From NCBI GenBank assembly GCA_937930175.1, contig CALGLP010000004.1, positions 2,163 to 66,162 of the forward strand: a stretch of DNA of 64,000 nucleotides, given 5' to 3'. This document shows positions 6,760-35,348 of this stretch, one piece after another; position 1 is the stretch's first letter, and every line of letters begins with the position of its first letter. This stretch comes from an uncultured bacterium (lineage in GTDB: Bacteria > Omnitrophota > Gorgyraeia > Zapsychrales > Aceulaceae). The position numbers and the translations under genes are program-made. Below the pieces are notes generated by a model. It did no database searches, was not told the DNA's origin, and saw nothing but the letters and a program-made list of their open reading frames with translations.

Positions 6760-6782
6760 TGTGACCCTGGTAGACAAGCACT

Positions 6783-6995
6783 GTGATGATAAAAATTTTG
6801 TCTTTTATGATCGTTTTTTATCAGAGGATAAAGCACGCGGTGGTTCCATCAACGTGTCGTTTTTATCCCTCCTGCTCCGAATATAGCCTTTTAGCTTTAA
6901 AGAAATACGGGCTTTTTAAAGGAATGATATTGTCTGTAAAACGCATATTACGTTGCTCTCCCCTGTCTGCGGGAGGGTTTGATCCCCTAAAATAG
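6783..6995 (+). CDS. yidD: Membrane protein insertion efficiency factor YidD
   Basis: 70-aa ORF with CRFYPSCSEYSLLALKKYG...RILRCSPLSAGGFDP, the YidD signature. Confidence 0.85.
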   Translation: MMIKILSFMIVFYQRIKHAVVPSTCRFYPSCSEYSLLALKKYGLFKGMILSVKRILRCSPLSAGGFDPLK

Positions 6996-7008
6996 AAAAA
7001 GGAATATC

Positions 7009-8622: not shown

Positions 8623-8840
8623 AAACTGAGGATAAATTGAAGAAAGAAAATAGTGATAAAAAAGGTTTTGAATTTTACGGAAGAACAGTTGAAGAGTCAA
8701 TTCAAATGGCAATGAAAGAGTTCAATGTTCCACGTGAATCATTGGACATAAAGATAGTTTCTGAAGAGAAAAAAGGGCTTTTTGGTATGGATGGAGAAAA
8801 ACCAGCAAAAATTATTGCTTCTTTGAAGAAAAAGAAGTAA
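8595..8840 (+). CDS. Jag-like protein, N-terminal domain only (no KH/R3H part)
   Basis: 81-aa ORF directly after yidC. The segment GRTVEESIQMAMKEFNVPRESLDIKIVSEEKKGLFG resembles the Jag_N domain. The start codon is uncertain. Confidence 0.5.
   Translation: MFGTRIKVLKTEDKLKKENSDKKGFEFYGRTVEESIQMAMKEFNVPRESLDIKIVSEEKKGLFGMDGEKPAKIIASLKKKK
8726..8741. promoter_or_regulatory. parS centromere-like site (inside the jag-like CDS)
   Basis: TGTTCCACGTGAATCA matches 15 of 16 positions of the Bacillus-type parS TGTTCCACGTGAAACA. Confidence 0.65.
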
Positions 8841-8868
8841 TATGGTTTTGTAGAGAATTTATAAAAGC

Positions 8869-8884
8869 TGTTCCACGTGGAACC
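8869..8884. promoter_or_regulatory. parS centromere-like site upstream of parA
   Basis: TGTTCCACGTGGAACC matches 14 of 16 positions of the parS consensus and has a perfect GTTCCACGTGGAAC palindrome. Confidence 0.65.
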
Positions 8885-9008
8885 CCGTTTGAGAATTTGA
8901 TTGGTTGTCAGAAAAATGTTGGTGGAATGAAGCCCAGCCGAGAATCGTAATTAAGATGCAATTAAGATTTGAGATTCTCTGACGGGGTGGAACCCAGAGG
9001 GTATTTAA

Positions 9009-9806
9009 ATGGGAAAAATAATAGCTTTCTGTAATCAAAAAGGTGGAACAGGGAAGACGACAACAGCTGTTAATTTATCAGCAGCTTTAAGTGAGAAGAA
9101 TAAAAAAATACTTCTTGTTGATATGGATCCGCAGGGAAACGCAACAAGCGGACTAGGTATAAACAAAAATCAAATACAAAGATCTATATACGATGTTCTT
9201 TTAAATAAATCAAAAGTTAGTGATATCTCTGTCCAATCTGAATTTAAAAATCTTTTTGTTGCTCCATGTAATATTAATTTAACTGGAGCAGAGATTGAAT
9301 TGGTTGGTTCTTTGTCTAGAGAAACAAGGCTTAAGAGAGGCCTTGAGGAGATAAAAAGCGAGTATGATTACATTTTTATTGATTCGCCGCCGTCATTAGG
9401 ACTGATTACGTTGAATTCATTGGTTGCAAGCGATTCGATCATTATTCCTATCCAATGTGAGTTTTATGCCCTCGAAGGAGTCTCGCAACTTTTAAATACG
9501 ATTAATTTAATTAGGGAAGGTCTTAACCCAACTCTTCATATTGAGGGCGTTTTGATGACAATGGCAGACTTCAGAACAAATTTGACATCTGAAGTTATTA
9601 ATGAAATTAAGACTTTTTTTAAGGATAAGGCCTACAAAACAGTTATTCCAAGAAACGTTAAATTAAGTGAAGCGCCAAGCTTTGGAAAGCCGATTTCTGT
9701 TTATGATCGTAATTCAATCGGCGCAAAGAAGTATGAGCAGTTTGCAAGAGAATTTCTCGGCGAGAAGATAGCAGAAGAGACTGAAAAGATTCTTCAGACA
9801 AATTAA
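9009..9806 (+). CDS. parA: Chromosome partitioning ATPase ParA/Soj
   Basis: 265-aa ORF with the deviant Walker A CNQKGGTGKTTTAVNL and DMDPQGNAT. Confidence 0.9.
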   Translation: MGKIIAFCNQKGGTGKTTTAVNLSAALSEKNKKILLVDMDPQGNATSGLGINKNQIQRSIYDVLLNKSKVSDISVQSEFKNLFVAPCNINLTGAEIELVGSLSRETRLKRGLEEIKSEYDYIFIDSPPSLGLITLNSLVASDSIIIPIQCEFYALEGVSQLLNTINLIREGLNPTLHIEGVLMTMADFRTNLTSEVINEIKTFFKDKAYKTVIPRNVKLSEAPSFGKPISVYDRNSIGAKKYEQFAREFLGEKIAEETEKILQTN

Positions 9807-9821
9807 CAAGGGGAAGAGAAA

Positions 9822-10673
9822 ATGGAAAAAAGTGCTTTAGGAAAAGGCCTGTCTGCTTTGATTCCCGAGAATTTTAAAAGTGATACCGATGAAAGTATTG
9901 CGTATGTCAATATTTCTCAAATTCAGAAGAATAACTTTCAGCCGCGTAAAGAATTTAAAGAAGAGAAATTATCTGACCTTGTTTCTTCTATCAAAGAAAA
10001 AGGAGTTCTTCAGCCGCTTTTGTTACGCAAAAAAGGTGATGGATATGAACTTATCGCAGGTGAGCGACGTTTGCGAGCTGCGCAGTCTTTAAATATTGAA
10101 AAAGTTCCAGCGATCATCAAATCAGCCACTGATGAAGAATCTTTAGTCTTGGCTTTAATTGAAAACATTCAGCGTGAAGATCTTAACCCAATTGACGAAG
10201 CAAAGGCTTATCGACGATTGGTTGAAGATTTTAGTTTTACACAAGACCATGTGGCACAATCAGTTGGGAAAGATAGGACAACCGTTACAAACATGTTGAG
10301 ATTATTGACTCTGCCTGAAGAAATTCAAAAAAGTATCGTAGACGGTGCTTTCTCTGTTGGTCATGCGCGAACAATTTTGTCGGTCAAAGATAGGATGCGA
10401 CAAACGTTTTTATGGAAGAAAACCATTGATAAAGGATTTTCCGTTCGTGAACTTGAGAATATTATCAAATCTGAAGAGAGTGCCCAAGAGGGGAAGCGAA
10501 AAGTTGGCGCTGAGAAAAAAGATCCTTATGTAGTTTCTGTGGAGGAGGACTTGCAACGCGCTTTAGGAACAAAGGTTCGTCTTGTGACAAAGAAAAAAAG
10601 AGGAACAATTGTTATTGAGTATTATTCGAATGACGACCTAGGCCGCATCATCAAGGCCATTGTTCGTTCTTAA
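9822..10673 (+). CDS. parB: Chromosome partitioning protein ParB/Spo0J
   Basis: 283-aa ORF with the ParB box GERRLRAA, NIQREDLNPIDEA, and an HTH region. Confidence 0.9.
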   Translation: MEKSALGKGLSALIPENFKSDTDESIAYVNISQIQKNNFQPRKEFKEEKLSDLVSSIKEKGVLQPLLLRKKGDGYELIAGERRLRAAQSLNIEKVPAIIKSATDEESLVLALIENIQREDLNPIDEAKAYRRLVEDFSFTQDHVAQSVGKDRTTVTNMLRLLTLPEEIQKSIVDGAFSVGHARTILSVKDRMRQTFLWKKTIDKGFSVRELENIIKSEESAQEGKRKVGAEKKDPYVVSVEEDLQRALGTKVRLVTKKKRGTIVIEYYSNDDLGRIIKAIVRS

Positions 10674-12942: not shown

Positions 12943-13065
12943 AATAGATGACGACGCCTCGCTTTATCTTTAAAACTATATAAAGGAAAAAGAAACGTAG
13001 TCAAGTCGAGGCAGAGTTCCTTTGGGAGATGAGGAATACGTTGTTATTTGGAATAAGGAGATTTT

Positions 13066-13083
13066 GGCGCGATAGCCAAGTGG
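13066..13083 (+). pseudogene. Orphan 5' fragment of a tRNA-Cys-like gene (positions 1-18)
   Basis: GGCGCGATAGCCAAGTGG matches 16 of 18 positions of the 5' end of the intact tRNA-Cys at 13363. It is followed by a 69-nt two-hairpin block. Confidence 0.6.
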
Positions 13084-13215
13084 GCCAGCTTTTCTTGAAA
13101 ACAATTAAGGAAGCTGGCATTCCGTTTCCGCTAAAAGTTTGGAGAAACGGAATAAGGTAGGACCCATAGTTCTTTGGAAAAATGTGTTTAAGCGCTCGAA
13201 ACAAGGTTTAGTCTT

Positions 13216-13234
13216 GGTGCGATAGCCAAGTGGT
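13216..13234 (+). pseudogene. Orphan 5' fragment of a tRNA-Cys-like gene (positions 1-19)
   Basis: GGTGCGATAGCCAAGTGGT matches 16 of 19 positions of the 5' end of the intact tRNA-Cys. It is followed by a 70-nt two-hairpin block. Confidence 0.6.
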
Positions 13235-13362
13235 GCCGATGTTTTCGTGAAACAGTAAAAGCATCGGCGCTCAACTTCCTCTAGAAATTTAAGGAATGTT
13301 GAGCGAGGCAGCATCCTTGTTCTTTTGGAGATGTTTGTCGTTCGTTTTAAAAGGTTTTTGCT

Positions 13363-13434
<72 letters not shown>

Positions 13435-13457
13435 TTAGTTTTTAAAACGAACGACAA

Positions 13458-13504
13458 AAGGTCTGCAAAACCTTTATCCGTCGGTTCGATTCCGACTCGC
13501 GCCT
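13458..13504 (+). pseudogene. Orphan 3' portion of a second tRNA-Cys (anticodon arm through acceptor 3' strand)
   Basis: AAGGT-CTGCAAA-ACCTT, TATCC, GTCGG-TTCGATT-CCGAC, TCGCGCC-T. The acceptor strand TCGCGCC is exactly complementary to the orphan 5' fragment GGCGCGA at 13066. Confidence 0.65.
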
Positions 13505-13678
13505 TAAATGTCCTCATAGCTTGTGCGACAAAACGGAGCGTAAGCTATTTGAGCGAACTTACTCCAAGCGATAGCGAGGAGTAAACGATAATCTATTTGT
13601 CTGAATTGACTCCGATGATTTCCGGAGCAAGTGATTTTAAGTGATTCCGTTAAAAGCGGAGTTCAGTATTCTTTGGGC

Positions 13679-13696
13679 GGGCAAGTGGTGGAATGG
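13679..13696 (+). pseudogene. Orphan 5' fragment of tRNA-Leu (positions 1-18)
   Basis: GGGCAAGTGGTGGAATGG is identical to the first 18 nt of the intact tRNA-Leu, which starts exactly 150 nt downstream. Confidence 0.65.
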
Positions 13697-13828
13697 TCCG
13701 ACTTCGTTCAAAAATATTCATGTTTGAACTACGTTGGACACATGGCTTTGGTGGCGCAGCGTGGCGAAGCTAAGCGCATACGTAATTTGGCAAAGACGGG
13801 CGAAAGCCCGGCGAAGTTTTACGAAGAC

Positions 13829-13911
13829 GGGCAAGTGGTGGAATGGCATACACGCAGGACTTAAAATCCTGTGGCTGAAAGGCTGTGAGGGTTCGACTCC
13901 CTCCTTGCCCA
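13829..13911 (+). tRNA. tRNA-Leu (UAA), type II
   Basis: Acceptor GGGCAAG/CTTGCCC, anticodon stem CAGGA/TCCTG with loop CTTAAAA, a long variable arm, and T arm GAGGG-TTCGACT-CCCTC. Length 83 nt, with no encoded CCA. Confidence 0.9.
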
Positions 13912-14491: not shown

Positions 14492-16234
14492 GTGACCTCA
14501 TTTATGGATCAAAATTATTTAGATACTTTACGACATAGCTGTTCGCACATCATGGCCCAGGCTGTTAAAGAATTATGGCCTGAGGTCAAGGTGGCAATCG
14601 GTCCTTCGATTGAAAACGGATTTTATTATGATTTTGATAAAAAAGAGCCGTTTACTCCCGACGATCTCAAGGCCATCACCAAGCGTATGCGACAGATCAT
14701 TGAAAAAAAGCCTGAATTTAAACAGAGCCTTATGCCCAAAGACAAGGCCTTGGCTTTTTTTAAAGAACGCAATGAAAACTATAAAGTTGAAATCATTGAA
14801 GCGCTTTCGGATGAAAATGTTTCGATGTATCAAACAGGCGAAGGCTTTGTTGATTTATGCAAAGGTCCTCATGTTAAGCATGCTGGGGAGATCAAGGCCT
14901 TTGCGCTGTTGTCTACGGCTGGCGCATATTGGCGCGGGGATGAAAAGAACGCCATGCTCCAGCGCATTTATGGAACCTGTTTCCCGTCGGAAAAAGAACT
15001 TAAAGAGCATTTAAAGCTTTTAGAAGAAGCCCAAAAACGAGATCACCGCAAGCTTGGACCTCAACTTGATTTGTTTAATTTTTACCAGGATGAAGCTGGT
15101 GCCGGGCTTATTTTTTATCACCCCAATGGCGCCATGGTGCGCAGAATCATTGAAGACTACATCAAGGATGAAAACTTAAAGCGTGGTTATGAGCTTGTGA
15201 TGACACCGCATATGCTGAAGGGAAAACTTTGGGAAATTTCTGGGCACGCAGATCATTACCGAGAGAACATGTATTATTTTAAGGTCGATAGCGAAGAATA
15301 TGCGGTGAAGCCCATGAACTGTCCAGGGCACATTTTGATTTATAAGTCACGAATACACTCTTATCGCGAAATGCCGGTACGTTATTTTGAGTTGGGGACG
15401 GTTTATCGACAAGAGAAAGCCGGTGTGTTGCATGGACTTTTGCGTGTGCGTGGATTTACACAAGACGATGGACATATTTTCTGCCGCGAAGACCAAATTT
15501 GTGAGGAAGTCAAGAATGCTATTGATTTTGTCTTTGCCGTGATGAAAGATTTTGGATTTGAAAAAGCTGAAATTGAATTGAGTACGCAACCCGCCAAGTT
15601 TATCGGCTCCCAAGAAAACTGGGACACGGCGACGAAGGCTCTAGAGGATTCGCTCAAGGAAAAAAATATTGCGTATAAAATTAACCTTGGCGACGGTGCT
15701 TTTTATGGCCCCAAAATTGATATCAAGCTTAAAGATGCTCTTGGTCGTCTTTGGCAGTGTGCGACAATCCAATGCGATTTTGCCTTGCCAGAGCGTTTTC
15801 AAATGACCTATGTCAGCGAAGACGGCAAAGAGAAGCGACCGATCATGATTCATCGCGCGATTTTAGGAAGCTTTGAGCGATTTTTTGGTACGCTCGTTGA
15901 GCATTATGCCGGAGCTTTTCCTCTGTGGCTTGCGCCAGTTCAGATTTTGTTGATCCCTATTCGTGAAGAGCAGGTTCATTTTACAAAAGAAGTAAAAGAC
16001 ATTTTACAAAATCAAGGGTTTCGGGTTATAATGGACGCACGCAACGAGACCTTGGATAAACGGATTCGCGAAGGATCGTTAAAGAAAATCCCATACCTTG
16101 TGATTATTGGTGAAAAAGAAATGACACAGCGTACAGTGGCCCTTCGCAAGCGAGGCGTAGGCGATGGGGGTGTTTTATCTATCGACGATTTTGTTAAGCA
16201 ACTTCAACAAGAACAACACGATAAAACAGCATAA
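14492..16234 (+). CDS. thrS: Threonyl-tRNA synthetase (no N-terminal TGS domain)
   Basis: 580-aa ORF beginning near the editing-domain motif LRHSCSHIMAQAV. Class II motifs and the anticodon-binding domain are present. The start is GTG 14492 or ATG 14504. Confidence 0.95.
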   Translation: MTSFMDQNYLDTLRHSCSHIMAQAVKELWPEVKVAIGPSIENGFYYDFDKKEPFTPDDLKAITKRMRQIIEKKPEFKQSLMPKDKALAFFKERNENYKVEIIEALSDENVSMYQTGEGFVDLCKGPHVKHAGEIKAFALLSTAGAYWRGDEKNAMLQRIYGTCFPSEKELKEHLKLLEEAQKRDHRKLGPQLDLFNFYQDEAGAGLIFYHPNGAMVRRIIEDYIKDENLKRGYELVMTPHMLKGKLWEISGHADHYRENMYYFKVDSEEYAVKPMNCPGHILIYKSRIHSYREMPVRYFELGTVYRQEKAGVLHGLLRVRGFTQDDGHIFCREDQICEEVKNAIDFVFAVMKDFGFEKAEIELSTQPAKFIGSQENWDTATKALEDSLKEKNIAYKINLGDGAFYGPKIDIKLKDALGRLWQCATIQCDFALPERFQMTYVSEDGKEKRPIMIHRAILGSFERFFGTLVEHYAGAFPLWLAPVQILLIPIREEQVHFTKEVKDILQNQGFRVIMDARNETLDKRIREGSLKKIPYLVIIGEKEMTQRTVALRKRGVGDGGVLSIDDFVKQLQQEQHDKTA

Positions 16235-16249
16235 CACAATCAGAAAGGG

Positions 16250-16795
16250 GTGGTTTGTATTAATAAGTATATTCGCATCAATGAGTACATTCGAGTTCCT
16301 GAGGTTCGCGTGATTGGGCCTAATTCAGAACAGCTGGGGGTTTTGATGGTCAGACGCGCGGTGGAGCTTGCGAAAGAACACGGTTTAGATTTAGTGGAAG
16401 TGGCGCCTATGGCCAAGCCGCCGGTTTGTCGCATCATTGATTTTAGTAAATACAAATATGAACAAGAAAAGAAAGAGCGTAAAAGTAAGAAAAGCCAGCA
16501 TGTGACACGCTTAAAAGAAATTCGCGTTAAGCCCCATATTGATGAGCACGATTATCAAGTGAAGCTCAAGCAATCGGCTTCCTTTTTAGATAAGCATGAC
16601 AAGGTCAAGATCAATTTGTTTTTTCGTGGACGAGAAATGGCCTTTAAAAGCCAAGGACGGCAAGTGCTTGACCGATTTGTTGTTGACCTAGCTGAGCACG
16701 GACAGCTTGAAAAAGATTTAGGGGTGGAAGGGCGCGTGATGTCGATTGTCATGGCTCCAAAATCTGCTAAAAAACAAGAACTACCAAAAGGATAA
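16250..16795 (+). CDS. infC: Translation initiation factor IF-3
   Basis: [22 protein letters not shown]...[17 protein letters not shown]. The start is ambiguous: GTG 16250 or the ATT at 16259, which would fit the AUU start typical of infC. Confidence 0.9.
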
Positions 16796-16799
16796 TTCT

Positions 16800-16997
16800 A
16801 TGCCAAAGCTTAAAACAAACCGGTCCGCGCGAAAAAGATTTCGCATCACAAAATCCGGAAGACTTAAGAAACGAAGCGCCAATCGTGGCCATATGTTAGG
16901 AAAAAAGTCACGTAAGCGTAAACGCCAACTGCGCCATAGCACCTATACCACAGGAGCTGACGCTAAGAAGATCAGGAAAATTTTACCATACGGGTAA
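16800..16997 (+). CDS. rpmI: 50S ribosomal protein L35
   Basis: [31 protein letters not shown] from the internal ATG at 16800. The ORF-track start at 16746 overlaps infC. Confidence 0.9.
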
Positions 16998-17036
16998 AAA
17001 CAAAGATCATCAAGGAAGTAAGGAGGATGTTGTTCC

Positions 17037-17396
17037 ATGACACGAGTATCTCATGCGGTTGCGTCACGCCGACGAAAAAAAAGAGTTTTAAAACTTGCCA
17101 AGGGGCAGTTTGGGCACCGTAGCAAGCGGTATCAACAAGCGGATCGTTCTGTTCGTAAAGGACAGAAGTATTCTTATCGCGATCGCAAGGTTAAAAAACG
17201 CGAATTTCGCAATCTCTGGGTTACGCGCATCAATGCGGCTTGCCGCGAGGCAGAGATGACCTATAGCCGTTTTATCAGCGGCCTCAAGAAAGCCAAGATT
17301 GACATGAATCGTCAAATGTTATCTGAGCTTGCAGTGAGATCACCCGTAGCTTTTAAGAAGCTTGTGGATATCGCGAAAAAAGCAAATAGTAAGTAG
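17037..17396 (+). CDS. rplT: 50S ribosomal protein L20
   Basis: 119-aa ORF starting MTRVSHAVASRRRKKRVLKLAKGQFG..., typical of L20. Confidence 0.95.
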   Translation: MTRVSHAVASRRRKKRVLKLAKGQFGHRSKRYQQADRSVRKGQKYSYRDRKVKKREFRNLWVTRINAACREAEMTYSRFISGLKKAKIDMNRQMLSELAVRSPVAFKKLVDIAKKANSK

Positions 17397-17433
17397 TTGT
17401 TTACAGTAGCGAATAATTAATAAAGAGAAAAAA

Positions 17434-17475
17434 AGAAAGGTGCGCCTGTTGGTATGACAACAGGCGCACCTTTCT
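17434..17475. terminator. Hairpin terminator after rplT (18-bp perfect stem)
   Basis: AGAAAGGTGCGCCTGTTG-GTATGA-CAACAGGCGCACCTTTCT, with an A-run upstream and T-rich sequence downstream. The core GTGCGCCTGTTG/CAACAGGCGCAC recurs at 18759. Confidence 0.6.
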
Positions 17476-17586
17476 TATCTTGTTATTTTGTTTTGTGTCC
17501 CCGCTTTTGGTGAATATAACCCTACCTTGTCAATCTTTTTTTCTATGCTATCCTTATCTTAGGATACAGGTAAAAAAGGAGGAAAA

Positions 17587-18714
17587 ATGTTATTTCGAGG
17601 TTTATTAAAAAGTATGCTACGGCTGTGGTTGTTGGGGCTTTTTATTTTAAGTGTATGTCCTATTGTTTTAGCAAATACTCTTTTTGTGCCTAGCCAATAT
17701 GCGCAAATTCAGCAAGCGATTGATGTCGCGCAGGCCGGGGATACCGTTTTCGTAGAGGCAGGGGTCTACGATATTCTGGACAGCATTCACATGAAAGAAA
17801 AAGTTAACTTGGTCGGCGCTGGCAGTCAGGTTACTGTTTTAAATGGCATCGATGAGATGGAGGTTCTTGTTTATGGGGCGAGTCATAGCCTGCTCTCAGG
17901 ATTTAAGCTTAAAAAAGAAATTGCTTCAACTGGAGTGCCCACGTATGGCGTGGCCGTTTATCTTGACAATGTCCGGCAGATGGTGATTAAGGATAATGGT
18001 GTGGTCGGGCATATGGATATCGGCATCTATTTAAAATCTAGCCATTATAATGTTCTTGAAAACAATATTGTCAAATCCATCGAGGATGACAAGGTGATTA
18101 GCCATGCCCTTTCACTGAATGCCTCTTCTTATAACTACATTCTTGATAATTCTGTCGATGGGTTTTGGGCGGGAATTTTTTCCTATTATGGAAAGAATAA
18201 TAAAATAGAACACAATTTTGTGCGCAAGGTCGAATTCCTCTATGGGCAGTCAACAGGGGGAGCCATCCATCTTTTTACCGAGAAAGATACAACGCTATTA
18301 CATAACACATGCTTGAGCATGACGCAGAACGTGACTCCGGGAGGAGGCTTAACGCTAGAGTATCCTCTTAATGTTCAGGTTAATAATTGTTTAATTTATG
18401 GAAAAAAACATGGGCTTTATGTTTCGGGAGACCTACCGGCAGCAGTTTCGATTCAATATAGCGATATTAAAGGTGAGGAGCAAGATGTTGTGTTGAGTGG
18501 AAGCATTAATCCTGTTTACGGCAGCGGCGTTTTGTTTCTTCCGCCTAAGGTGAATTTGGGGAGTGGAGCGCTTTATGCCAACTCGCCTTGCCGCAACGCA
18601 GGGGACCCAGGAACGCCTCATGATCCTGATGGATCAATAGCGGATATAGGGGCTTTTTATTATGTTCTTCCGAGCAGTCCTCCTGTGCCTAATATTCGGC
18701 GTGATAACAAGTAG
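17587..18714 (+). CDS. Secreted right-handed parallel beta-helix repeat protein
   Basis: 375-aa ORF with an N-terminal signal/TM segment (LWLLGLFILSVCPIVLA). Repeated units (NNIV..., LDNSV..., HNF..) are typical of pectate-lyase-fold/NosD-like beta-helices. Confidence 0.55.
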   Translation: MLFRGLLKSMLRLWLLGLFILSVCPIVLANTLFVPSQYAQIQQAIDVAQAGDTVFVEAGVYDILDSIHMKEKVNLVGAGSQVTVLNGIDEMEVLVYGASHSLLSGFKLKKEIASTGVPTYGVAVYLDNVRQMVIKDNGVVGHMDIGIYLKSSHYNVLENNIVKSIEDDKVISHALSLNASSYNYILDNSVDGFWAGIFSYYGKNNKIEHNFVRKVEFLYGQSTGGAIHLFTEKDTTLLHNTCLSMTQNVTPGGGLTLEYPLNVQVNNCLIYGKKHGLYVSGDLPAAVSIQYSDIKGEEQDVVLSGSINPVYGSGVLFLPPKVNLGSGALYANSPCRNAGDPGTPHDPDGSIADIGAFYYVLPSSPPVPNIRRDNK

Positions 18715-18758
18715 AGGTATTTTTTAGGGATAAGTATTTGGGATTGATATGTTTTTTG

Positions 18759-18798
18759 GTGCGCCTGTTGTTGTGACAACAGGCGCACTTCTTTTTTA
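18759..18798 (+). terminator. Rho-independent terminator after the beta-helix gene
   Basis: GTGCGCCTGTTG-TTGTGA-CAACAGGCGCAC followed by TTCTTTTTT. The stem arms are the same as in the hairpin at 17434. Confidence 0.6.
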
Positions 18799-18903
18799 GT
18801 AAGATTATTAGGATTTTCGAAATGCTTTAGAAAAGATAGTTTTTTATTTCTTTTCTAGTATAATAAGCATAAGTTATTTTTATTAATATATTGCTTAGTC
18901 ACT

Positions 18904-19950
18904 ATGTCCTCTTGGAATTTTAACGAACTTACGTTAACCGCAGAACAAGAAATTCAATCTGTTGTTGATATTGAAGCCCTTGAGCTTTTGCGCGTCAAAT
19001 ACCTTGGCCGCAAAGGACTTGTAGCTCAGATCTATGATGGCTTGGCCCAAGCTTCACCTGAAGAAAAACCGTTGATTGGCAAGGGCGCCAACGAATTACG
19101 TAAGAAAGTCACTGAGCTTCTGGAATCAAAGCGCGTAACCCTTGTAGAGGGGAATCTTTCTCTACAAAGCTCCGCAGACACCCTTGATTTAACTCTGCCT
19201 GGCGTTGCCCCAGAGCTTGGTCGACGACATATTTTATCGCAAACGATCAATGATATCTGCAGCATTTTTGAACATTTAGGCTTTGCAGTTTTTGAAGGCC
19301 CGGAAATTGAAACTGAGTTTAATAATTTTACCGCGCTTAATATTCCCTTGGATCACCCTTCGCGTGATGCCTTTGATACATTTTATCTTAAAGAAAAAGA
19401 TCCTCAAAGTCCTGCGCGCCATTTGCTGTTGCGCAGCCATACGTCGCCGGCACAGATTCGCGTAATGCAAGCGCATAAGCCACCCTTGGCCGTGATTGTT
19501 CCAGGCAAGGTGTATCGACCTGATGCTATGGACGCGAGCCATTCCTACATGTTTCACCAAATTGAAGGACTCGTGATCGACGAGAACATTACATTTGCAG
19601 ATCTTAAGGGATTTCTGACTAATTTCTGTAAGAAATTTTTTGGCCCGGACATCAAGATGCGTTTTCGTCCGCATTTTTTCCCTTTTACAGAACCATCAGC
19701 TGAGGTCGATATTTCGTGTTATATTTGTGGTGGGCGGGGTTGTTCGGTGTGCGGTCGTAAAGGGTGGCTTGAGATCTTAGGTTGCGGCATGGTCCACCCG
19801 AAGGTGTTTGAGGCCGTAAAATATCCTAAGGGTCAATATGCCGGCCTGGCCTTTGGTATGGGTGTTGAACGCATTGCAATGCTTAAGCACGGCATCAACG
19901 ACATTCGCTTGTTCTATGAAAATGATTTAAGGTTTTTGAAACAGTTTTAA
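18904..19950 (+). CDS. pheS: Phenylalanyl-tRNA synthetase alpha subunit
   Basis: 348-aa ORF with class II motifs (HPSRDAFDTFY, FRPHFFPFTEPSAEVD, GMGVERIAML). Confidence 0.95.
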   Translation: MSSWNFNELTLTAEQEIQSVVDIEALELLRVKYLGRKGLVAQIYDGLAQASPEEKPLIGKGANELRKKVTELLESKRVTLVEGNLSLQSSADTLDLTLPGVAPELGRRHILSQTINDICSIFEHLGFAVFEGPEIETEFNNFTALNIPLDHPSRDAFDTFYLKEKDPQSPARHLLLRSHTSPAQIRVMQAHKPPLAVIVPGKVYRPDAMDASHSYMFHQIEGLVIDENITFADLKGFLTNFCKKFFGPDIKMRFRPHFFPFTEPSAEVDISCYICGGRGCSVCGRKGWLEILGCGMVHPKVFEAVKYPKGQYAGLAFGMGVERIAMLKHGINDIRLFYENDLRFLKQF

Positions 19951-19971
19951 TGAAGGAAAGGAAAAGAAGGA

Positions 19972-21492
19972 ATGAAAAAAATCGTTTTTGGGATATTGTT
20001 TGGTGTTTGTTTTTGTTCTTTGACTTTTGCCGAGAGCTTGACGCTTACCACTTATTATCCAGCACCGTTTGGAATGTATAAAGAGATGCGGGTGATGGGG
20101 AAGTTGGGGGTTGGGATAACAGATCCAACACATAAGGTAGAGATTGTGCCAGATGCTGGTCAAGGAGCCCTTGTTACTGGAACAGGAAACACTGCGTCAG
20201 ATGGTTCCTCTGCTTTTGGCACAGGAAATTCAGTGAGTGGAACCAAATCTCTTGCTTCAGGAACTGGCAATACCGTTTCAGGGAATACATCTTTTGCTTC
20301 AGGAACCGGTAATACCGTCTCTAGTGCAACATCTTTTGCTTCAGGAGCTTCTAACACTGTTTCAGGAATTCAGGCTTTTGCTTCTGGGACAGGAAATGAT
20401 GTTTCTGGAGCTTTATCCTTTGCTTCCGGTGTATCCAACATTATCTCCGCAACAGGAAGTCAGTCTGCCGCCTTTGGCTGGGAAAATAACATAACGAAGC
20501 CTTCGAGCTTTGCCACAGGTTACGGCAATACGGTTAGCAGTCAGCAGTCTTTTGCTGGGGGTGAGCATGTAACAGCGCAAGCTGCAAATTCTTTTGTTTT
20601 TGGAAGATACAATGTTGTTTCTGGGAGTCCTGTGAGCTGGGTTCCAACCGAGCCTTTGTTTGTTCTTGGAAATGGAACAAGCGCCACTCCGTCTAACGCC
20701 ATGACTGTCTTAAAGAATGGTAAAGTTGGTGTTTCTACTGCGTTGCCGCAAGCAACTCTTCATGTTGGTGATGGCATAGGTATGCCACCTGTCGGATCTG
20801 CTGAAGCGTTGACTTTAATAGGAACGGTGGCGAATCAACCAGCCTTAATTGCTGTTTCTAGGCCTACAAGCGATCCTGATCCTGCGAGCATAGCAACAGG
20901 ACGCATGGCTGTTTATGCTGCAGGGCTTGACTATGGCATTTATTCTGCTCAAGGAGAAAATTATTTTGCAGATAGCGTAGGCATTGGAGCGCCATCGGGA
21001 ACACAAAAACTACATGTCTACAACGATACCTCTCCATACACCGCAACAATTACAAAGAATTCTGATAGCAATGGCGCTGCTTTGCAGATTTACTCTGGAA
21101 ATGGTGGAATGTCTTGGGTAGGGGGAAAAGCAGGCATATATATGAACAATGCCAACGGGCATTACGGCATTTTTCAGGCAACGAATTCTGGAGCGACAAA
21201 AAATTATTTTGGAGGCAACGTGGGCATCGGAGTTGTAGATCCCACGGTGTCTTTGGACGTTTCTGGTCAGGCGCGTATTCAAATTGCGGAAACTAATGGA
21301 TCATGTACGAGTGCGGCTGATGGAGGGAAACTAAATTTTACACCAGCAGTAACTTATATGTGTGGAGGGAGTTCATATACTACGTCAGTTTTGCGTCTTT
21401 GTTCCAGGGATCATGGTGGTACTTGGGCTTGGCGGCAGGTGCAAGGCGCGTGGTCTGGAGATCTTTGCGGATCGGCAGCTTTGCCGGATTAA
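19972..21492 (+). CDS. Secreted repeat protein, paralog 1 (14-residue SFASG..N.VSG repeats; adhesin/fibre-like)
   Basis: 506-aa ORF with a signal peptide and then ESLTLTTYYPAPFGMYKEMRVMGKLGVG. About 10 tandem 14-residue repeats resemble YadA-head/Hep_Hag beta-roll repeats. A conserved neck (FVFGRYN...PLFVLGNG...NAMTVLKNGKVGV) is followed by a Cys-containing C-terminal domain. Confidence 0.6.
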   Translation: MKKIVFGILFGVCFCSLTFAESLTLTTYYPAPFGMYKEMRVMGKLGVGITDPTHKVEIVPDAGQGALVTGTGNTASDGSSAFGTGNSVSGTKSLASGTGNTVSGNTSFASGTGNTVSSATSFASGASNTVSGIQAFASGTGNDVSGALSFASGVSNIISATGSQSAAFGWENNITKPSSFATGYGNTVSSQQSFAGGEHVTAQAANSFVFGRYNVVSGSPVSWVPTEPLFVLGNGTSATPSNAMTVLKNGKVGVSTALPQATLHVGDGIGMPPVGSAEALTLIGTVANQPALIAVSRPTSDPDPASIATGRMAVYAAGLDYGIYSAQGENYFADSVGIGAPSGTQKLHVYNDTSPYTATITKNSDSNGAALQIYSGNGGMSWVGGKAGIYMNNANGHYGIFQATNSGATKNYFGGNVGIGVVDPTVSLDVSGQARIQIAETNGSCTSAADGGKLNFTPAVTYMCGGSSYTTSVLRLCSRDHGGTWAWRQVQGAWSGDLCGSAALPD

Positions 21493-21558
21493 AAGGATTC
21501 GTAAAAATTAAAGCTGTGCTATCGGTAATTTAATATTTTCTTAAAGGGAGGAAACGAA

Positions 21559-23046
21559 ATGAAAAAAATCTTTTTTGGGATATTGTTTAGTGTTTGTTTT
21601 TGTTCCCTGGCTTTTGCCGAGAGCTTAACGCTTACGACGTATTATCCAGCACCGTTTGGAATGTATAAAGAGATGCGTGTGATGGGGAAGTTGGGGGTTG
21701 GGACAACGGCGCCTGTAGCCAAAACTGAAATTGTAGCTTCTGGGGCAGAAGGAGCCCTTTTGGTTGGAACAGGAACAGTGACAAATTTATCCTCTGCTTT
21801 TGGTACAGCTAATACGGTGAGCGGAACTAAGTCTTTTGCTTCTGGAGCATCTCATAGCGTTACTGGCGATCAATCCGCTGCTTTTGGCTCAGCTAATCCG
21901 GTGGGAGGAGATAATTCTTTTGCGGCAGGAATAAATAATGATGTTTCTGGAGACAAATCTTTTGCTTCTGGAGAGTCCAATCTCGTGCCTGGGGCCAAGT
22001 CTTTTGCTGCTGGAAAATCAAATACAGCTTCCGGAGACCATGCTTTTGCTGCCGGGGAAGGCGTGACAGCGCAAGCTTACGATTCCTTTGTTTTTGGAAG
22101 GTGGAATATTATTGCAGGAACTTCAGACGCTTGGGTTGATGCTGACCCTTTGTTTGTTGTTGGAAACGGAAGAGATAATGCTGCCAACAGATCCAACGCT
22201 GTGACTGTCTTAAAGAATGGAAGCGTTGGGATCAACACTAGTGTTCCTGAGTATAGCATGAGCTATCTTGAAATCTTTGATGATGCGACTAATGGCGCAA
22301 ATGGCATGCAGATAACATCAGGGGCTTCTTCAGAGGATGATCCTAGAATTATCTTGAAGCGAAGGCATGGCATTCCAAACAATAATAATGATGGGTTTAG
22401 CATTGCCTATGATCGAAGCGCAGATTCGCTAGACACTTCTTATGTTAACGCTAATCTTACAGGAAATCCTCTTTTGACAATTAAACAAGCTGGCAACGTT
22501 GGCATAGGAACCACCGATCCTGCCTCTCGGCTTGATGTTGGCAACGGAACGATTACCCTGGGGTCTGGGAATATTTCTAATGCAGGAGATGCTGATCGAG
22601 GTATTTTTATTGATAGCGATGGTAATATTGGTCTAAACAAGACAGACCCGGACGTTCTTACTCATGTTGGAGCGTGCTCGGGAGGATCTTGCTGGGCCGA
22701 AGATGCAACGATTTTTAAAGTAGATGGGCGGGCTGACACAGGACATCTTGTTGTTGGGACCTATGCGGTTCCGCGAAATGCTTATGTTTACGGATATATT
22801 CGTCCTTCATGGTCTTCCGCTCCGTGTGATGTTGATCACATAGGTGCGATTCGAGTAGCACAATATGCAGCTGCAGGAAGTAATCGTTGCGCTTTAGAGG
22901 TTTGTTATCCTGGTCAATCGAAGTATTGGAATGGCATAGCGTGGACGGTTGTTCAGCCAACTAGCATGAGCTGGAAAGGAACATGTCATCTTATTGACGG
23001 AGGAGCAGTTGTACCTTATGAAACCACTCCTGCTATTACTGATTAA
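21559..23046 (+). CDS. Secreted repeat protein, paralog 2
   Basis: 495-aa ORF. The first ~50 residues are almost identical to paralog 1, and it shares the same repeat type and neck motif (FVFGRWN...PLFVVGNG...NAVTVLKNGSVGI). The C-terminal half is unrelated. Confidence 0.6.
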   Translation: MKKIFFGILFSVCFCSLAFAESLTLTTYYPAPFGMYKEMRVMGKLGVGTTAPVAKTEIVASGAEGALLVGTGTVTNLSSAFGTANTVSGTKSFASGASHSVTGDQSAAFGSANPVGGDNSFAAGINNDVSGDKSFASGESNLVPGAKSFAAGKSNTASGDHAFAAGEGVTAQAYDSFVFGRWNIIAGTSDAWVDADPLFVVGNGRDNAANRSNAVTVLKNGSVGINTSVPEYSMSYLEIFDDATNGANGMQITSGASSEDDPRIILKRRHGIPNNNNDGFSIAYDRSADSLDTSYVNANLTGNPLLTIKQAGNVGIGTTDPASRLDVGNGTITLGSGNISNAGDADRGIFIDSDGNIGLNKTDPDVLTHVGACSGGSCWAEDATIFKVDGRADTGHLVVGTYAVPRNAYVYGYIRPSWSSAPCDVDHIGAIRVAQYAAAGSNRCALEVCYPGQSKYWNGIAWTVVQPTSMSWKGTCHLIDGGAVVPYETTPAITD

Positions 23047-23083
23047 TTAGGCAGGATGAGTAGAAGAAAAATATTAATCTAGA

Positions 23084-25204
23084 ATGAAAATATCTTTAAA
23101 TTGGCTCAAAGAGTATATTAATTCTAAGCTTTCTGCAAAGGAGCTTGCGCATCGGCTGACACTTTCTGGACTGGAAGTCGAGAAAGAGGAGATTGTCTCC
23201 GTTGATTCGATTTATCTTGGTTTGAGCTCAGGGGAAATCGAGACGTCCCCGCGTTCTATAGGGTCAAAACCAAGGAAGCTAGGGGACGATACGGTTTTTG
23301 AACTAGAGATCACGCCTAACAGGCCGGATTGCTTGAGCTTGATCGGTATTGCGCGAGAGCTTTCCGCGATCCTTAACGTGCCGCTTAAGACGCCCAAAGT
23401 CGGCAAGATCAAGATTCCTTCCAAAAAGTGTTCGATTGTTATCGAGGATAAAAAAGATTGCGCAAGGTATATTGGTGCGATTTTGACAGATGTCAAAATC
23501 GCACCATCTTCGGTGCGCATACAAGCCTTCTTAAGCGCGATCGGGCTTCGTCCGGTTAACAATATTGTGGATATAACGAACTTTTGCTTGATGGAAACCG
23601 GACAGCCCATGCACGCCTTTGATTACGACAAGCTTTCCGGAGGAAAGATTGTTGTGCGCCGCGCCAAGCCTGGCGAGAAATTGATTGCCATCAACGACGT
23701 GGAATACACCCTTGATCCTTCTATTCTTGTGATTGCCGATGCCGAGCGCGCGGTCGCAATCGCAGGCATTATGGGTGGCAAGGCTACGGAAGTCACAGCG
23801 AAAACAAAAAATATTTTGCTTGAAAGTGCGTCTTTTGATCCGCTTTTGATCCGTCGAGCATCCCGCAAGCTTGGCCTTCGCAGTGATGCATCGTATCGTT
23901 TCGAACGCGGCGTGGATATGGACATGGTTTACAAAGGATGCCTTCGAGCCGTGAGCTTGATGCTTGAAATTGCCTCAGGAACCTTTACTTCTTTGGCTGA
24001 TGTGGCTCAAGGAAAATCTAAAAAGCAAAAGCCTGTTTCGATTGTTTTTGATATTAAAAAAGCAACGAAACTTTTGGGCACCGCAATTTCTTCTTCTCAG
24101 GCCAAGAATATTTTAACAAAGCTTGAGTGTAAGGTTAGCTCAGCAGCCAAGGGAGGACTCAAGGTTTCTCCGCCGTCATTTCGTGCGGATATTAAAACGG
24201 ACGTGGATGTCATTGAGGAGATTGGCCGTATTATTGGTTTTGATCGCTTGTCCTCTCGCCTTTGCGCCATTAATCCTTTGAACATCGCAACAGACAAAAA
24301 GCGTATGTTCAAAGAAAAGCTTGCCACGCTTCTTGTTTCCCAGGGTTGCAGCGAGATTGTTTCTTATACAACGCTAAGCACCGCAGACCTTGTCAAGGCC
24401 AAGGTGTCCCTGCAAGGTCTTGTGTACAATCAGAATTTTCTTAATGAAGACCAAGAAGTGATGCGGCCTTCGTGCTTGCCGAGCATGCTCAATGTCCTAG
24501 GACATAATGTGAAGAACGGGCAGAAGAATTTAAGGTTTTTTGAAATAGGTAAGATTTATTTGCCGTCGGGTGAGAAGGATGTCTTTGTGATTGGGCTTAC
24601 GGGAGTACCGGCTCATGACTGGCGTTCGCCACAGACAAGAAAGAATGATTTTTATGATATCAAGGGTATTGTTGCGAACGCGTTTGAATTTTTTAAGGCG
24701 CAAGGCCTTGTTTTTCGGTCAGGGCAACATGTGTCTTTGGATCCCCAGGAAACCATGGACATTATTTTTGCAGGGCAAGCCGTGGGTTTTCTCGGCAAGA
24801 TTAAAAAAAATATTCTCAGCGCTTGGGATATTAAACATCAGGATGTTTTTTTTGCGCAAATCTTCATTGACGGTTTATGTCAGCATGATGCCAAGCGGAT
24901 TGCCGCTTATGTGCCTTTAAATGCTTATCCAAGCATTGTGCGCGATGTTAGCCTTGCACTCAAGAAAGAGATCAGCTATCAAAGCATTAAAGAGGCTATT
25001 GTTCATCTCCGCGAGCCGCTTTTGAAAAGCATTGATTTTGTTGAGCAGTATCTCGGCGACAAGATTTCTCCTGGACAAAGGGGCATGACCATTTCTTTGG
25101 TTTATCAATCATCGAGCAAGACGCTCACTGAGCAAGAAGTTGAAGAGGCACACCAGCGCATTTGTAGCCACATTGTGAGCGCGTTTCAGGCTGTTAAAAG
25201 ATAG
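23084..25204 (+). CDS. pheT: Phenylalanyl-tRNA synthetase beta subunit (short form)
   Basis: 706-aa ORF with MKISLNWLKEYI..., ITPNRPDCLS, B3/4, B5 and the C-terminal ferredoxin-fold anticodon-binding domain. The N-terminal OB-fold tRNA-binding domain appears replaced by a short linker. Confidence 0.9.
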   Translation: MKISLNWLKEYINSKLSAKELAHRLTLSGLEVEKEEIVSVDSIYLGLSSGEIETSPRSIGSKPRKLGDDTVFELEITPNRPDCLSLIGIARELSAILNVPLKTPKVGKIKIPSKKCSIVIEDKKDCARYIGAILTDVKIAPSSVRIQAFLSAIGLRPVNNIVDITNFCLMETGQPMHAFDYDKLSGGKIVVRRAKPGEKLIAINDVEYTLDPSILVIADAERAVAIAGIMGGKATEVTAKTKNILLESASFDPLLIRRASRKLGLRSDASYRFERGVDMDMVYKGCLRAVSLMLEIASGTFTSLADVAQGKSKKQKPVSIVFDIKKATKLLGTAISSSQAKNILTKLECKVSSAAKGGLKVSPPSFRADIKTDVDVIEEIGRIIGFDRLSSRLCAINPLNIATDKKRMFKEKLATLLVSQGCSEIVSYTTLSTADLVKAKVSLQGLVYNQNFLNEDQEVMRPSCLPSMLNVLGHNVKNGQKNLRFFEIGKIYLPSGEKDVFVIGLTGVPAHDWRSPQTRKNDFYDIKGIVANAFEFFKAQGLVFRSGQHVSLDPQETMDIIFAGQAVGFLGKIKKNILSAWDIKHQDVFFAQIFIDGLCQHDAKRIAAYVPLNAYPSIVRDVSLALKKEISYQSIKEAIVHLREPLLKSIDFVEQYLGDKISPGQRGMTISLVYQSSSKTLTEQEVEEAHQRICSHIVSAFQAVKR

Positions 25205-25394
25205 GATCTTAACGATCGAGCGCTTCTTGATCTTTCCCTGCAGTGTTCGTCGGAAGCCAAATATACTGAACCAATACAGTATATAAGGGAGCATTCGTTC
25301 TGTTAAATGTCTGCGGACATTTCAGAGAAGCACCCACTTGTAACGAACGGTTCATGTTACTAAGCTTCTGACGGCACAGGCGGGGTTCATTATT

Positions 25395-32082: not shown

Positions 32083-32156
32083 TGCCCTGTCGTCTAATGG
32101 TAGGACTCAAGATTCTGGATCTTGCTATCATGGTTCGAGTCCATGCGGGGCAGCCA
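32083..32156 (+). tRNA. tRNA-Gln (CUG)
   Basis: Acceptor TGCCCTG/CGGGGCA, anticodon stem CAAGA/TCTTG with loop TTCTGGA, and T arm CATGG-TTCGAGT-CCATG. CCA is encoded. Length 74 nt. Confidence 0.9.
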
Positions 32157-34414: not shown

Positions 34415-34429
34415 AAGTAGAGGTGGAAT

Positions 34430-35334: not shown

Positions 35335-35348
35335 TTTTTCAAAAAGGG

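What the first reader, a model, noticed from the sequence alone, without database searches (positions are those of the whole stretch)
17397..23083. The conserved infC-rpmI-rplT-pheS-pheT cluster has been invaded twice by secreted-protein genes, and one insertion is bracketed by a duplicated hairpin
Established knowledge: thrS-infC-rpmI-rplT-pheS-pheT is one of the most conserved bacterial gene strings, and pheS and pheT are normally adjacent. Here a 375-aa secreted beta-helix protein sits between rplT and pheS, and two ~500-aa secreted repeat proteins sit between pheS and pheT. The beta-helix gene is flanked on both sides by hairpins with identical arms: GTGCGCCTGTTG / CAACAGGCGCAC at 17440-17469 and at 18759-18788. 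This looks like a cassette inserted together with a copy of the rplT terminator, or by recombination at it.
Basis: partly seen in the sequence, partly recalled or inferred. Interest (0 to 1): 0.5.

Follow-up and report, generated by a model that had tools for sequence, protein, structure and literature searches.

The report
Surface-fibre genes nested in pheST operon
In this uncultivated Omnitrophota bacterium, two fast-evolving secreted fibre genes sit inside the essential pheS-pheT operon, as they do in its whole clade. A newer secreted beta-helix gene next door is bracketed by two copies of one terminator hairpin, which is a local copy and not an insertion scar.

Summary
The genes and both hairpins are at the stated coordinates, and no other copy of the hairpin occurs in the 64 kb.

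The two interruptions differ in kind and age.

- **pheS|pheT.** This gap holds 1-5 tandem genes for secreted fibre-like proteins in every sampled member of the window's clade. About 50 other Omnitrophota-like genomes have pheS and pheT adjacent. So this is an old, fixed, hypervariable locus. In the window the genes are packed with spacers of 21, 66 and 37 nt and no terminator. The proteins share an unannotated N-terminal module (signal peptide, then TLTTYYPAPFGMY). That module heads about 1000 protein clusters whose tips are tail-fibre-like.

- **rplT|pheS.** This is an operon boundary. In Omnitrophota it is either empty or holds Trk/Ktr potassium-uptake genes. Only the window and its nearest relative carry a self-contained beta-helix gene there, with its own promoter and terminator.

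- **Hairpins.** Both are intrinsic terminators. The downstream one has an ortholog in the nearest relative, whose rplT terminator is unrelated. The upstream copy is therefore a secondary local duplication, not an insertion scar or a REP family.

The parts
14492..17396 (+). thrS-infC-rpmI-rplT (thrS 14492-16234, infC 16250-16795, rpmI about 16800-16997, rplT 17037-17396)
   Evidence: ORFs; Pfam Ribosomal_L20 for rplT; tblastn synteny with 80 loci.
17433..17476 (+). Hairpin T1 after rplT. Perfect 19-bp stem, core 17440-17469, with an A-tract before it and a T-rich tail after it. It is the present rplT terminator and a derived copy of T2.
   Evidence: -36.7 kcal/mol. L042 and L088 have unrelated rplT terminators.
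17527..17554 (+). Promoter-like site of the beta-helix gene (TTGTCA, 16 nt, TATCCT, with TG upstream).
   Evidence: The same block is readable upstream of the L042 ortholog.
17587..18714 (+). Secreted right-handed parallel beta-helix protein (375 aa). Lineage-specific insert at the rplT|pheS operon boundary.
   Evidence: Pfam Beta_helix/NosD/Pect-lyase. AF2 model pLDDT 80.7. Foldseek neighbours are alginate epimerases, tailspike depolymerases, GH87 and polysaccharide lyases. The ortholog occurs only in L042/L156; the next homolog lies beside ftsH.
18758..18789 (+). Hairpin T2, followed by TTCTTTTTT. Terminator of the beta-helix gene and the ancestral copy.
   Evidence: It aligns with the L042 hairpin and shares its flanks; the stem differs by a compensatory T-A to C-G change.
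18850..18864 (+). Conserved -10 block CTTTTCTAGTATAAT of the pheS promoter.
   Evidence: Invariant in the window, L042 and L088 (alignment A1); also readable in L001 and L005.
18904..19950 (+). pheS
   Evidence: Pfam tRNA-synt_2d.
19972..21492 (+). rep1: secreted fibre-like protein. It has the N-module (signal peptide plus TLTTYYPAPFGMY), YadA-head-like 14-residue beta-roll repeats, GxVGIG..P...L units and a small Cys-containing C-terminal domain (here called type A).
   Evidence: (42-nt period).
21559..23046 (+). rep2: tandem paralog. It matches rep1 at 55% identity over residues 1-263 (the first 49 residues match at 45 of 49). The C-terminal half is unrelated (here called type B).
   Evidence: (D3).
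23084..25204 (+). pheT
   Evidence: Pfam B3_4, B5, tRNA_synthFbeta, FDX-ACB.
25232..25390 (+). 6S RNA gene, 27 nt after pheT. Possible 3' end of the same transcription unit.
   Evidence: Rfam RF00013, 66 bits. The same linkage occurs in 7 relatives.

Best explanation
The window comes from an Omnitrophota genome. The region is made of three transcription units: thrS-infC-rpmI-rplT, ending at hairpin T1; a stand-alone beta-helix gene with its own promoter and terminator T2; and pheS-rep1-rep2-pheT, possibly running on into 6S RNA.

(1) pheS|pheT locus. rep1 and rep2 belong to a clade-wide hypervariable locus that has sat between pheS and pheT since the common ancestor of the window's clade. It holds 1-5 tandem genes for secreted, probably trimeric, fibre proteins. 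Each has a conserved N-terminal module, fibre repeats and exchangeable C-terminal tips. In the window they are packed without terminators (spacers 21, 66 and 37 nt). They are inferred to be read from the pheS promoter together with the essential synthetase genes. The locus diversifies by tandem duplication, homogenisation of the 5' module within a genome, and replacement of the distal parts. The conserved pheS and pheT flanks are inferred to serve as anchors for homologous exchange. The likely role, by analogy, is attachment to a host or prey surface.

(2) rplT|pheS gap. This is an operon boundary that in this phylum is empty or carries Trk/Ktr genes. The common ancestor of the window and L042 acquired there a self-contained gene for a secreted beta-helix protein that probably acts on or binds polysaccharide.

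(3) Hairpins. Both are intrinsic terminators. T2 is ancestral to the beta-helix unit. T1 arose later in the window's lineage, when a copy of T2 of about 31-38 nt replaced the former rplT terminator. The mechanism was short-patch gene conversion or template switching. Which of the two is inferred, not shown.
For: Organism and synteny.

pheS|pheT:
- 50 of 53 loci have gaps of 159 nt or less. The exceptions L001, L004 and L008 carry only genes with the N-motif.
- Six of six context look-ups of N-module homologs fall between pheS and pheT.
- In the NJ tree the window, L088, L001, L089, L081 and L082 form one clade, and all have the insert.
- Spacers in the window, L088 and L084 are 10-66 nt and unstructured.
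- 5' modules are 76-98% identical within a genome against at most 72% between genomes.
- rep1 and rep2 share only their N-terminal halves.
- L088 shares 86% of pheS residues with the window, but its rep genes match only over the first 63-66 residues.
- Codon usage is native.

rplT|pheS:
- 20 loci are empty, 29 carry Trk/Ktr genes and 1 (L042) carries the beta-helix gene.
- Identities place the window with L042, then L088 (90.2, 88.3 and 86.8%), which points to one gain.
- The next homolog of the beta-helix protein (51%) lies beside ftsH.

Hairpins:
-.
- T2 is orthologous to the L042 hairpin, with conserved flanks and a compensatory change.
- T1 shares the window-specific stem features of T2.
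- The rplT terminators of L042 and L088 are unrelated to it.
- No further copies turned up.

Protein nature: beta-roll with pLDDT about 90; trimeric autotransporter head CbpF, E=7e-5; wider family members end in Peptidase_S74, H_lectin or T4 gp36 domains.
Against: - Co-transcription is inferred from spacing only; no expression data were available. In L081, L087 and L001 the pheS-to-rep spacer is 106-260 nt and holds strong stem-loops, so operon embedding may not hold for the whole clade.
- The tree is a rough NJ tree. In the sister clade, L004 and L008 have inserts but L009, L013, L016 and L017 do not. That means either several losses or independent gains.
- The loci are centred on pheS, so family members elsewhere in these genomes would go unseen. 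Divergent N-motif genes do lie elsewhere (L083, L157, L159).
- The direction of the hairpin copying rests on one relative (L042).
- Only 64 kb of a 188-kb contig could be searched for further hairpins.
- Trimer formation, surface display and function of the fibres are untested. The rep1 model was poor outside the repeats.
Confidence: 0.7

Rival explanations
1. The beta-helix gene entered as a cassette, either together with a copy of the rplT terminator or by recombination at that terminator. The two identical hairpins are then the scar of the insertion.
For: Two hairpins with identical 12-bp arms bracket exactly one gene. L088 and L005 lack the gene, so an insertion did occur.
Against: L042 has the orthologous gene at the same site, with an unrelated rplT terminator and only the downstream hairpin conserved. 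The two window copies resemble each other (29 of 31 positions) more than T2 resembles its L042 ortholog, although the surrounding intergenic DNA has diverged about 35%. This requires recent copying in the window's lineage whatever happened earlier. The rplT terminators of L088, L005 and L001 are all different from it.
Confidence: 0.1
2. The hairpin belongs to a dispersed REP-like or other mobile palindromic family that happens to have landed on both sides of the gene.
For: It is a perfect GC-rich extragenic palindrome present in more than one copy.
Against: There are only 2 copies in 64 kb, even allowing 3 mismatches. A scan of 241 million metagenome records for the 10-bp-arm core found 62 single, unrelated sites, none with the full arms and none paired. 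In about 1.2 Mb of Omnitrophota loci the 7-bp core occurs only at the orthologous L042 site. No transposase- or RAYT-like gene was found among the 40 large ORFs of the window.
Confidence: 0.05
3. The rep genes are recent, independent horizontal insertions into pheS|pheT in each genome, for example from phage tail-fibre genes, and are not a vertically inherited locus.
For: Gene number (1-5), gene order and distal sequences differ between close genomes. The repeats resemble tail-fibre and adhesin repeats. In the sister clade the distribution is patchy.
Against: Every insert at this site is of the same N-module family, and all members of the window's clade have one. No viral contig encodes the N-module. 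The prophage in the window shares nothing with the rep genes. Codon usage is native. Repeated independent hits of one family on one 20-nt gap are much less parsimonious than a single old insertion followed by turnover.
Confidence: 0.1
4. The rep genes lie between pheS and pheT but are expressed on their own, from promoters inside the 3' end of pheS or in the spacers. The nesting would then have no regulatory meaning.
For: Relatives L081, L087 and L001 have long structured spacers after pheS. A promoter-like match lies inside pheS at 19684-19713.
Against: In the window, L088 and L084 the spacers are 10-66 nt, have ribosome-binding sites and no hairpins. pheT has no promoter-like site of its own in its 37-nt spacer. 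It therefore depends on read-through across 3.1 kb.
Confidence: 0.25

Closest known systems
Bdellovibrio bacteriovorus mosaic adhesive trimer (MAT) fibre proteins (PMC10769870)
   Same: The architecture reads the same. There is a signal peptide, a family-wide conserved module directly after it, a repetitive fibre with V-G-x-x-x-x-P-x-x-x-L-type units, diverse swappable C-terminal tips, and a subset with a Peptidase_S74 chaperone domain. The organism is likewise a suspected predator or parasite (PMC10066038).
   Different: The conserved module here is about 30-50 residues (TLTTYYPAPFGMY...GVG), not the roughly 130-residue beta-rich domain of the MATs. No sequence or fold match to solved MAT structures reached significance. 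The proteins are shorter (about 400-650 aa). In this clade the genes sit inside pheST. Trimer formation and surface display are untested.
Trimeric autotransporter adhesins (YadA, Ata, CbpF)
   Same: 14-residue head repeats of the type SxAxGxxNxVSG. Matches are Pfam LbR_Ice_bind/YadA_head and the CbpF head at E=7e-5.
   Different: There is no C-terminal YadA-type membrane anchor and no matching stalk. The conserved end is the N-terminus.
Hypervariable surface-structure loci held between conserved housekeeping genes (for example the O-antigen cluster between galF and gnd, or the pneumococcal capsule locus between dexB and aliA; from general knowledge)
   Same: Highly conserved flanks, content that differs between close relatives, and assemblies that often break at the locus.
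   Different: Here the flanks are the two subunit genes of one essential enzyme in a single operon, and the cargo is 1-5 fibre genes, not a biosynthetic cluster. Exchange by flank recombination is inferred, not shown.
Intrinsic (Rho-independent) terminators
   Same: A GC-rich stem-loop followed by a T-rich tract, directly downstream of a stop codon on the coding strand.
   Different: Two neighbouring terminators share one stem sequence. The upstream one also has an A-tract and so looks bidirectional, although no gene converges on it.

Membership tests
Intrinsic terminator | Stable GC-rich stem-loop just after a stop codon on the coding strand | tested here: met
   T1 lies 37 nt after the rplT stop and T2 lies 44 nt after the beta-helix stop. 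Energies are -36.7 and -25.7 kcal/mol; z-scores are -9.4 and -6.0.
Intrinsic terminator | U-tract directly after the stem | tested here: met
   T2 is followed by TTCTTTTTT. T1 is followed by a T-rich but interrupted tract, (C)TTTCTTATCTTGTTATTTTG. Actual termination was not measured.
REP/BIME-like repeated extragenic palindromes | Tens to hundreds of dispersed copies per genome | tested here: not met
   2 copies in 64 kb with up to 3 mismatches. None elsewhere. The rest of the source genome could not be read.
Integron gene cassette (attC-bounded) | Promoterless ORF, attC site with RYYYAAC...GTTRRRY cores (57-141 nt), and an integron integrase nearby | tested here: not met
   The hairpin is 31 nt and lacks the core motifs when read directly. 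The gene has its own conserved promoter-like site. The only recombinase among the 40 large ORFs is a prophage serine recombinase 13 kb away.
Trimeric autotransporter adhesin | YadA-type head repeats | tested here: met
   LbR_Ice_bind and YadA_head matches, and the CbpF head at E=7e-5.
Trimeric autotransporter adhesin | C-terminal YadA-like beta-barrel anchor | tested here: not met
   No anchor domain in Pfam or NCBIfam. The C-termini are small Cys-containing domains.
Bdellovibrio MAT fibre family | Signal peptide followed by a family-wide conserved N-terminal domain | tested here: inconclusive
   A conserved module follows the signal peptide in 126 of the 135 best cluster representatives. It is much shorter than the roughly 130-aa MAT domain. 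Homology to that domain could not be tested because no MAT N-domain sequence or structure was at hand.
Bdellovibrio MAT fibre family | Variable C-terminal tips, with a Peptidase_S74 subset | tested here: met
   rep1 and rep2 share only residues 1-263. Tips differ across homologs. S74, H_lectin and gp36 domains occur in the wider family.
Bdellovibrio MAT fibre family | Trimeric fibre displayed on the cell surface | not testable with these tools
   The monomer AF2 model is confident only for the beta-roll at residues 60-200.
Phage tail-fibre gene / prophage remnant | Phage structural genes alongside, or presence on viral contigs | tested here: not met
   The neighbours are pheS and pheT. No viral contig encodes the N-module. 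The window's prophage proteins are unrelated.
Conserved thrS-infC-rpmI-rplT-pheS-pheT string | All six genes present, in the same order and on the same strand | tested here: met
   The string is interrupted at rplT|pheS and at pheS|pheT.

The most novel reading that the evidence does not exclude
The TLTTYYP(A/S)P(F/Y)GxY module that follows the signal peptide may be an undescribed presentation or anchoring signal. It would define a large repertoire (about 1000 clusters at 50% identity) of host- or prey-recognition fibres in Omnitrophota and neighbouring lineages. In one clade the active copies would be kept inside the essential pheST operon. That position would guarantee expression and supply conserved flanks for swapping tips between strains. 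A 77-aa member wedged between fabD and fabG in another genome hints that nesting in housekeeping operons may be a habit of the family.
Probability: 0.3. Interest if true: 0.65.

Novelty: new variant of a known kind. Interest (0 to 1): 0.45.

Why it matters
Omnitrophota are uncultivated, mostly ultra-small bacteria suspected of living on other cells. How they recognise partners is unknown beyond pili and giant ORFs (PMC10066038). A compact, fast-evolving fibre locus with a recognisable N-terminal tag gives a concrete candidate for that recognition. Its fixed address between pheS and pheT makes it easy to find in fragmentary genomes. It also gives a marker for strain-level variation.

The finding also carries a caution for synteny-based inference. 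Even the two subunit genes of an essential enzyme can stably host accessory genes. A hairpin pair around a gene need not mark how that gene arrived.

Tried and rejected
- **rep1 structure.** The AF2 model was poor (mean pLDDT 56; only the beta-roll was confident). Foldseek against the PDB gave nothing below E=0.5.
- **Viral origin.** A scan of viral contigs for the N-module found no encoded relative. PHROGs gave only weak repeat-level hits.
- **Domain libraries.** Neither Pfam nor NCBIfam has a model for the N-module.
- **Literature.** Searches for the motif, and for Omnitrophota together with pheS, found nothing.
- **Short-query protein search.** A search with the 53-aa module alignment returned only short or fragmentary proteins, so it gave no family census.
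- **Hairpin in metagenomes.** The scan gave only single, unrelated sites. It did not contain the source genome, so the remaining roughly 124 kb of the source contig is unchecked.
- **Rfam on the hairpins.** Only sub-threshold microRNA and sRNA noise.
- **Composition.** GC content and codon usage showed no foreign signature for any of the three inserted genes.
- **Other mobile-element readings.** Integron cassette, MITE or composite transposon, and prophage origin were considered and rejected (see the membership tests).
Full report
**Observation.**
- The ORF list and Pfam give thrS, infC, rpmI and rplT (ending at 17396). They also give a 375-aa beta-helix protein (17587-18714), pheS (18904-19950), two repeat proteins of 506 and 495 aa (19972-21492 and 21559-23046), and pheT (23084-25204).
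- The palindrome GTGCGCCTGTTG-N6-CAACAGGCGCAC occurs at 17440-17469 and 18759-18788. It occurs nowhere else in the window, even with three mismatches, and never in shuffled sequence.
- The shared stretch is 38 nt and the flanks are unrelated.

**Organism and map.**
- A pheS-based scan of one genome per species returned Omnitrophota genomes as the closest relatives. L042 has 81% identity over a partial pheS, and L001 (Candidatus Aceula meridiana) has 75%.
- The window starts near the replication origin (gyrB, dnaN and dnaA on the minus strand; yidC and parAB on the plus strand). It also contains a prophage at about 32-56 kb.
- A 6S RNA gene lies 27 nt after pheT. The same linkage is seen in seven relatives.

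**The rplT|pheS gap.**
- The gap could be measured in 50 Omnitrophota-like loci. It is short (26-319 nt) in 20 and 2.1-4.0 kb in 29. It is 1.5 kb in L042, which alone carries an ortholog of the beta-helix gene (62% identity).
- The long gaps hold Trk/Ktr potassium-uptake genes in three layouts. Pfam confirmed this for L001, L007, L048, L076, L081, L082 and L087. For the other loci it is inferred from matching ORF sizes.
- The junction is an operon boundary. A -10 block TTTTCTAGTATAAT upstream of pheS is invariant in the window, L042 and L088.
- Over thrS-infC-rpmI-rplT the window is 90.2% identical to L042 and 86.8% to L088. L042 and L088 are 88.3% identical, and all three are about 73% identical to L001. 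L088 has only a terminator and the promoter between rplT and pheS.
- The simplest history is loss of trkAH in this sub-lineage and one gain of the beta-helix unit in the ancestor of the window and L042.
- The unit is self-contained. It has a promoter-like site at 17527-17554 that is conserved in L042 and its own terminator.
- The only other close homolog (51%) lies next to ftsH in another genome.
- The AF2 model is a confident right-handed beta-helix (pLDDT 80.7). Its structural neighbours are alginate epimerases, phage tailspike depolymerases, GH87 glucanase and polysaccharide lyases, with TM-scores of only 0.35-0.53. The fold class is supported; the substrate is unknown.

**The hairpins.**
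- Both have the anatomy of intrinsic terminators.
- In L042 the hairpin after the beta-helix gene aligns with the window's T2. The flanks are conserved, and the stem differs by a compensatory T-A to C-G change and is 3 bp shorter. The L042 hairpin after rplT is an unrelated 22-bp stem.
- The rplT terminators of L088, L005 and L001 also differ from one another.
- The two window copies match at 29 of 31 positions and share the window-specific stem features, while the surrounding intergenic DNA of the window and L042 has diverged by roughly a third.
- Whatever the earlier history, the stems were therefore copied or homogenised in the window's lineage. The parsimonious reading is that a copy of T2 replaced the older rplT terminator.
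- The hairpin is not a dispersed family. The 10-bp-arm core found 62 single, unrelated sites in 241 million metagenome records, none with the full arms. The 7-bp core occurs among Omnitrophota loci only at the orthologous L042 site.
- As direct repeats 1.3 kb apart, the two copies could mediate deletion of the gene. This is an inference.

**The pheS|pheT gap.**
- In 50 of 53 loci the two genes are 2-159 nt apart. The exceptions are L001 (one gene), L004 (three) and L008 (five).
- Every gene in these gaps, and both genes in the window, begins with a signal peptide followed by TLTTYYP(A/S)PxGxY. The motif occurs nowhere else in the 80 loci or in the 64-kb window.
- Protein homologs of rep1 that carry the module were looked up without regard to position. 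All six look-ups landed between pheS and pheT (L081, L082, L084, L087, L088, L089).
- In an NJ tree of pheS+pheT+thrS, the window, L088, L001, L089, L081 and L082 form one clade in which every member has the insert. The sister clade is mixed.
- The insert is therefore old and fixed in this clade, but its content turns over quickly. L088 shares 86% of pheS residues with the window, yet its rep genes match only over the first 63-66 residues. Gene number and the order of the two C-terminal types vary.
- Many contigs end in or next to the locus (L004, L005, L042, L084, L087, L088, L152, L153).
- Within a genome the 5' modules are 76-98% identical, against at most 72% between genomes. This indicates recent duplication or gene conversion. 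rep1 and rep2 share residues 1-263 at 55% and nothing after that.
- In the window, L088 and L084 the spacers are 10-66 nt and unstructured. Co-transcription from the pheS promoter is the likely mode of expression.
- L081, L087 and L001 have long structured spacers after pheS, so this may not hold throughout the clade.

**What the proteins are.**
- The repeats have a 42-nt, 14-residue period of the YadA-head type. They model as a beta-roll and match the head of the trimeric autotransporter CbpF. There is no membrane anchor.
- A full HMMER pass over 1.84 billion cluster representatives with the first 60 residues found 965 clusters at E of 0.001 or better. Of the 135 best representatives newly retrieved by that search, 126 have the motif about 29 residues from the start. 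Their lengths run from 64 to 667 aa.
- Members of this wider family end in Peptidase_S74, H-type lectin or T4 gp36-like domains.
- No Pfam or NCBIfam model covers the module, and no paper in the library mentions it.
- The architecture parallels the Bdellovibrio MAT fibres: signal peptide, conserved N-terminal domain, fibre, variable tips, and subfamilies with or without S74. Membership cannot be claimed, because the module is much shorter and no similarity was detected.
- Divergent members lie outside pheST: three tandem genes in L083, a 77-aa gene between fabD and fabG in L157, and two genes in L159.

**Verdict.**
- The finding is real and its comparative prediction (relatives without the inserts) is fulfilled.
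- The proposed mechanism for the hairpins is not supported, and the two invasions are not equivalent.
- The hairpin pair is a minor local event.
- The more notable result is the clade-wide hypervariable fibre locus inside an essential operon, together with the large unannotated family to which it belongs.
- Main limits: no expression data, pheS-centred sampling, a rough tree, a single informative relative for the hairpins, and no access to the rest of the source genome.

Noticed in passing
window 13064-13911: tRNA fragments surround the intact tRNA-Cys (13363-13434) and tRNA-Leu (13829-13911). There are two 5' halves (GGCGCGATAGCCAAGTGG at 13064 and GGTGCGATAGCCAAGTGG at 13214, 150 nt apart). 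There is an 87% copy of the 3' half of tRNA-Cys at 13459-13505, whose acceptor strand pairs with the 13064 fragment. There is also a 5' fragment of tRNA-Leu at about 13676-13700. ARAGORN and Rfam call none of them. They may be integration scars or decayed duplicates.
   Followed up: partly
window 25232-25390; L001, L002, L028, L081, L082, L084, L089: A 6S RNA gene directly follows pheT in the window and in seven other Omnitrophota loci. In L081, L082 and L089 it is followed by 5-formyltetrahydrofolate cyclo-ligase, the classic ssrS-ygfA pair. In the window and L084, rarA sits between them.
   Followed up: partly
window about 32083-56000: A prophage lies next to tRNA-Gln (32083-32156). It has a large serine recombinase (32094-33833, minus strand), a ParB-methylase, a GpA-type large terminase (38701-40551), a lambda-type portal (41194-42780), a tail tube, tail protein L and a 1206-aa protein (51595-55215). 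It is unrelated to the rep and beta-helix genes.
   Followed up: partly
L082 7900-11106: Both rep copies have 5' ends that are 98% identical, and in both the N-module is out of frame with the rest of the gene (the called products start MVCIKRCGLWEVLGVGTTDP). This is a shared frameshift, an assembly error or pseudogenisation.
   Followed up: no
L157 7001-7234 (also L158): A 77-aa secreted protein with the same N-motif lies between fabD and fabG inside the plsX-fabD-fabG-acpP-fabF cluster and overlaps fabD by 8 nt. This is a second case of an N-motif gene nested in a housekeeping operon.
   Followed up: no
L081 6212-6471; L087 6311-6487: The pheS-to-rep spacers in these relatives contain several strong GC-rich stem-loops (-72 to -81 kcal/mol over 177-260 nt), unlike the 10-21-nt spacers of the window and L088. 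They could be terminators, attenuators or repeat elements.
   Followed up: no
window 61464-61521 and 62204-62261; 34346-34423 and 35340-35389: Two further repeat pairs. One is a 58-nt promoter-like block (TTGACA...TATATT followed by TGTGAACA) at 83% identity, 740 nt apart, flanking a TetR gene. The other is a direct-plus-inverted repeat pair around the sigma-like gene of the prophage.
   Followed up: no
window 3655-10673: The origin-proximal genes (dnaN, yidC, parA, parB) have clearly lower GC (0.30-0.39) and GC3 (0.24-0.32) than the rest of the window.
   Followed up: no
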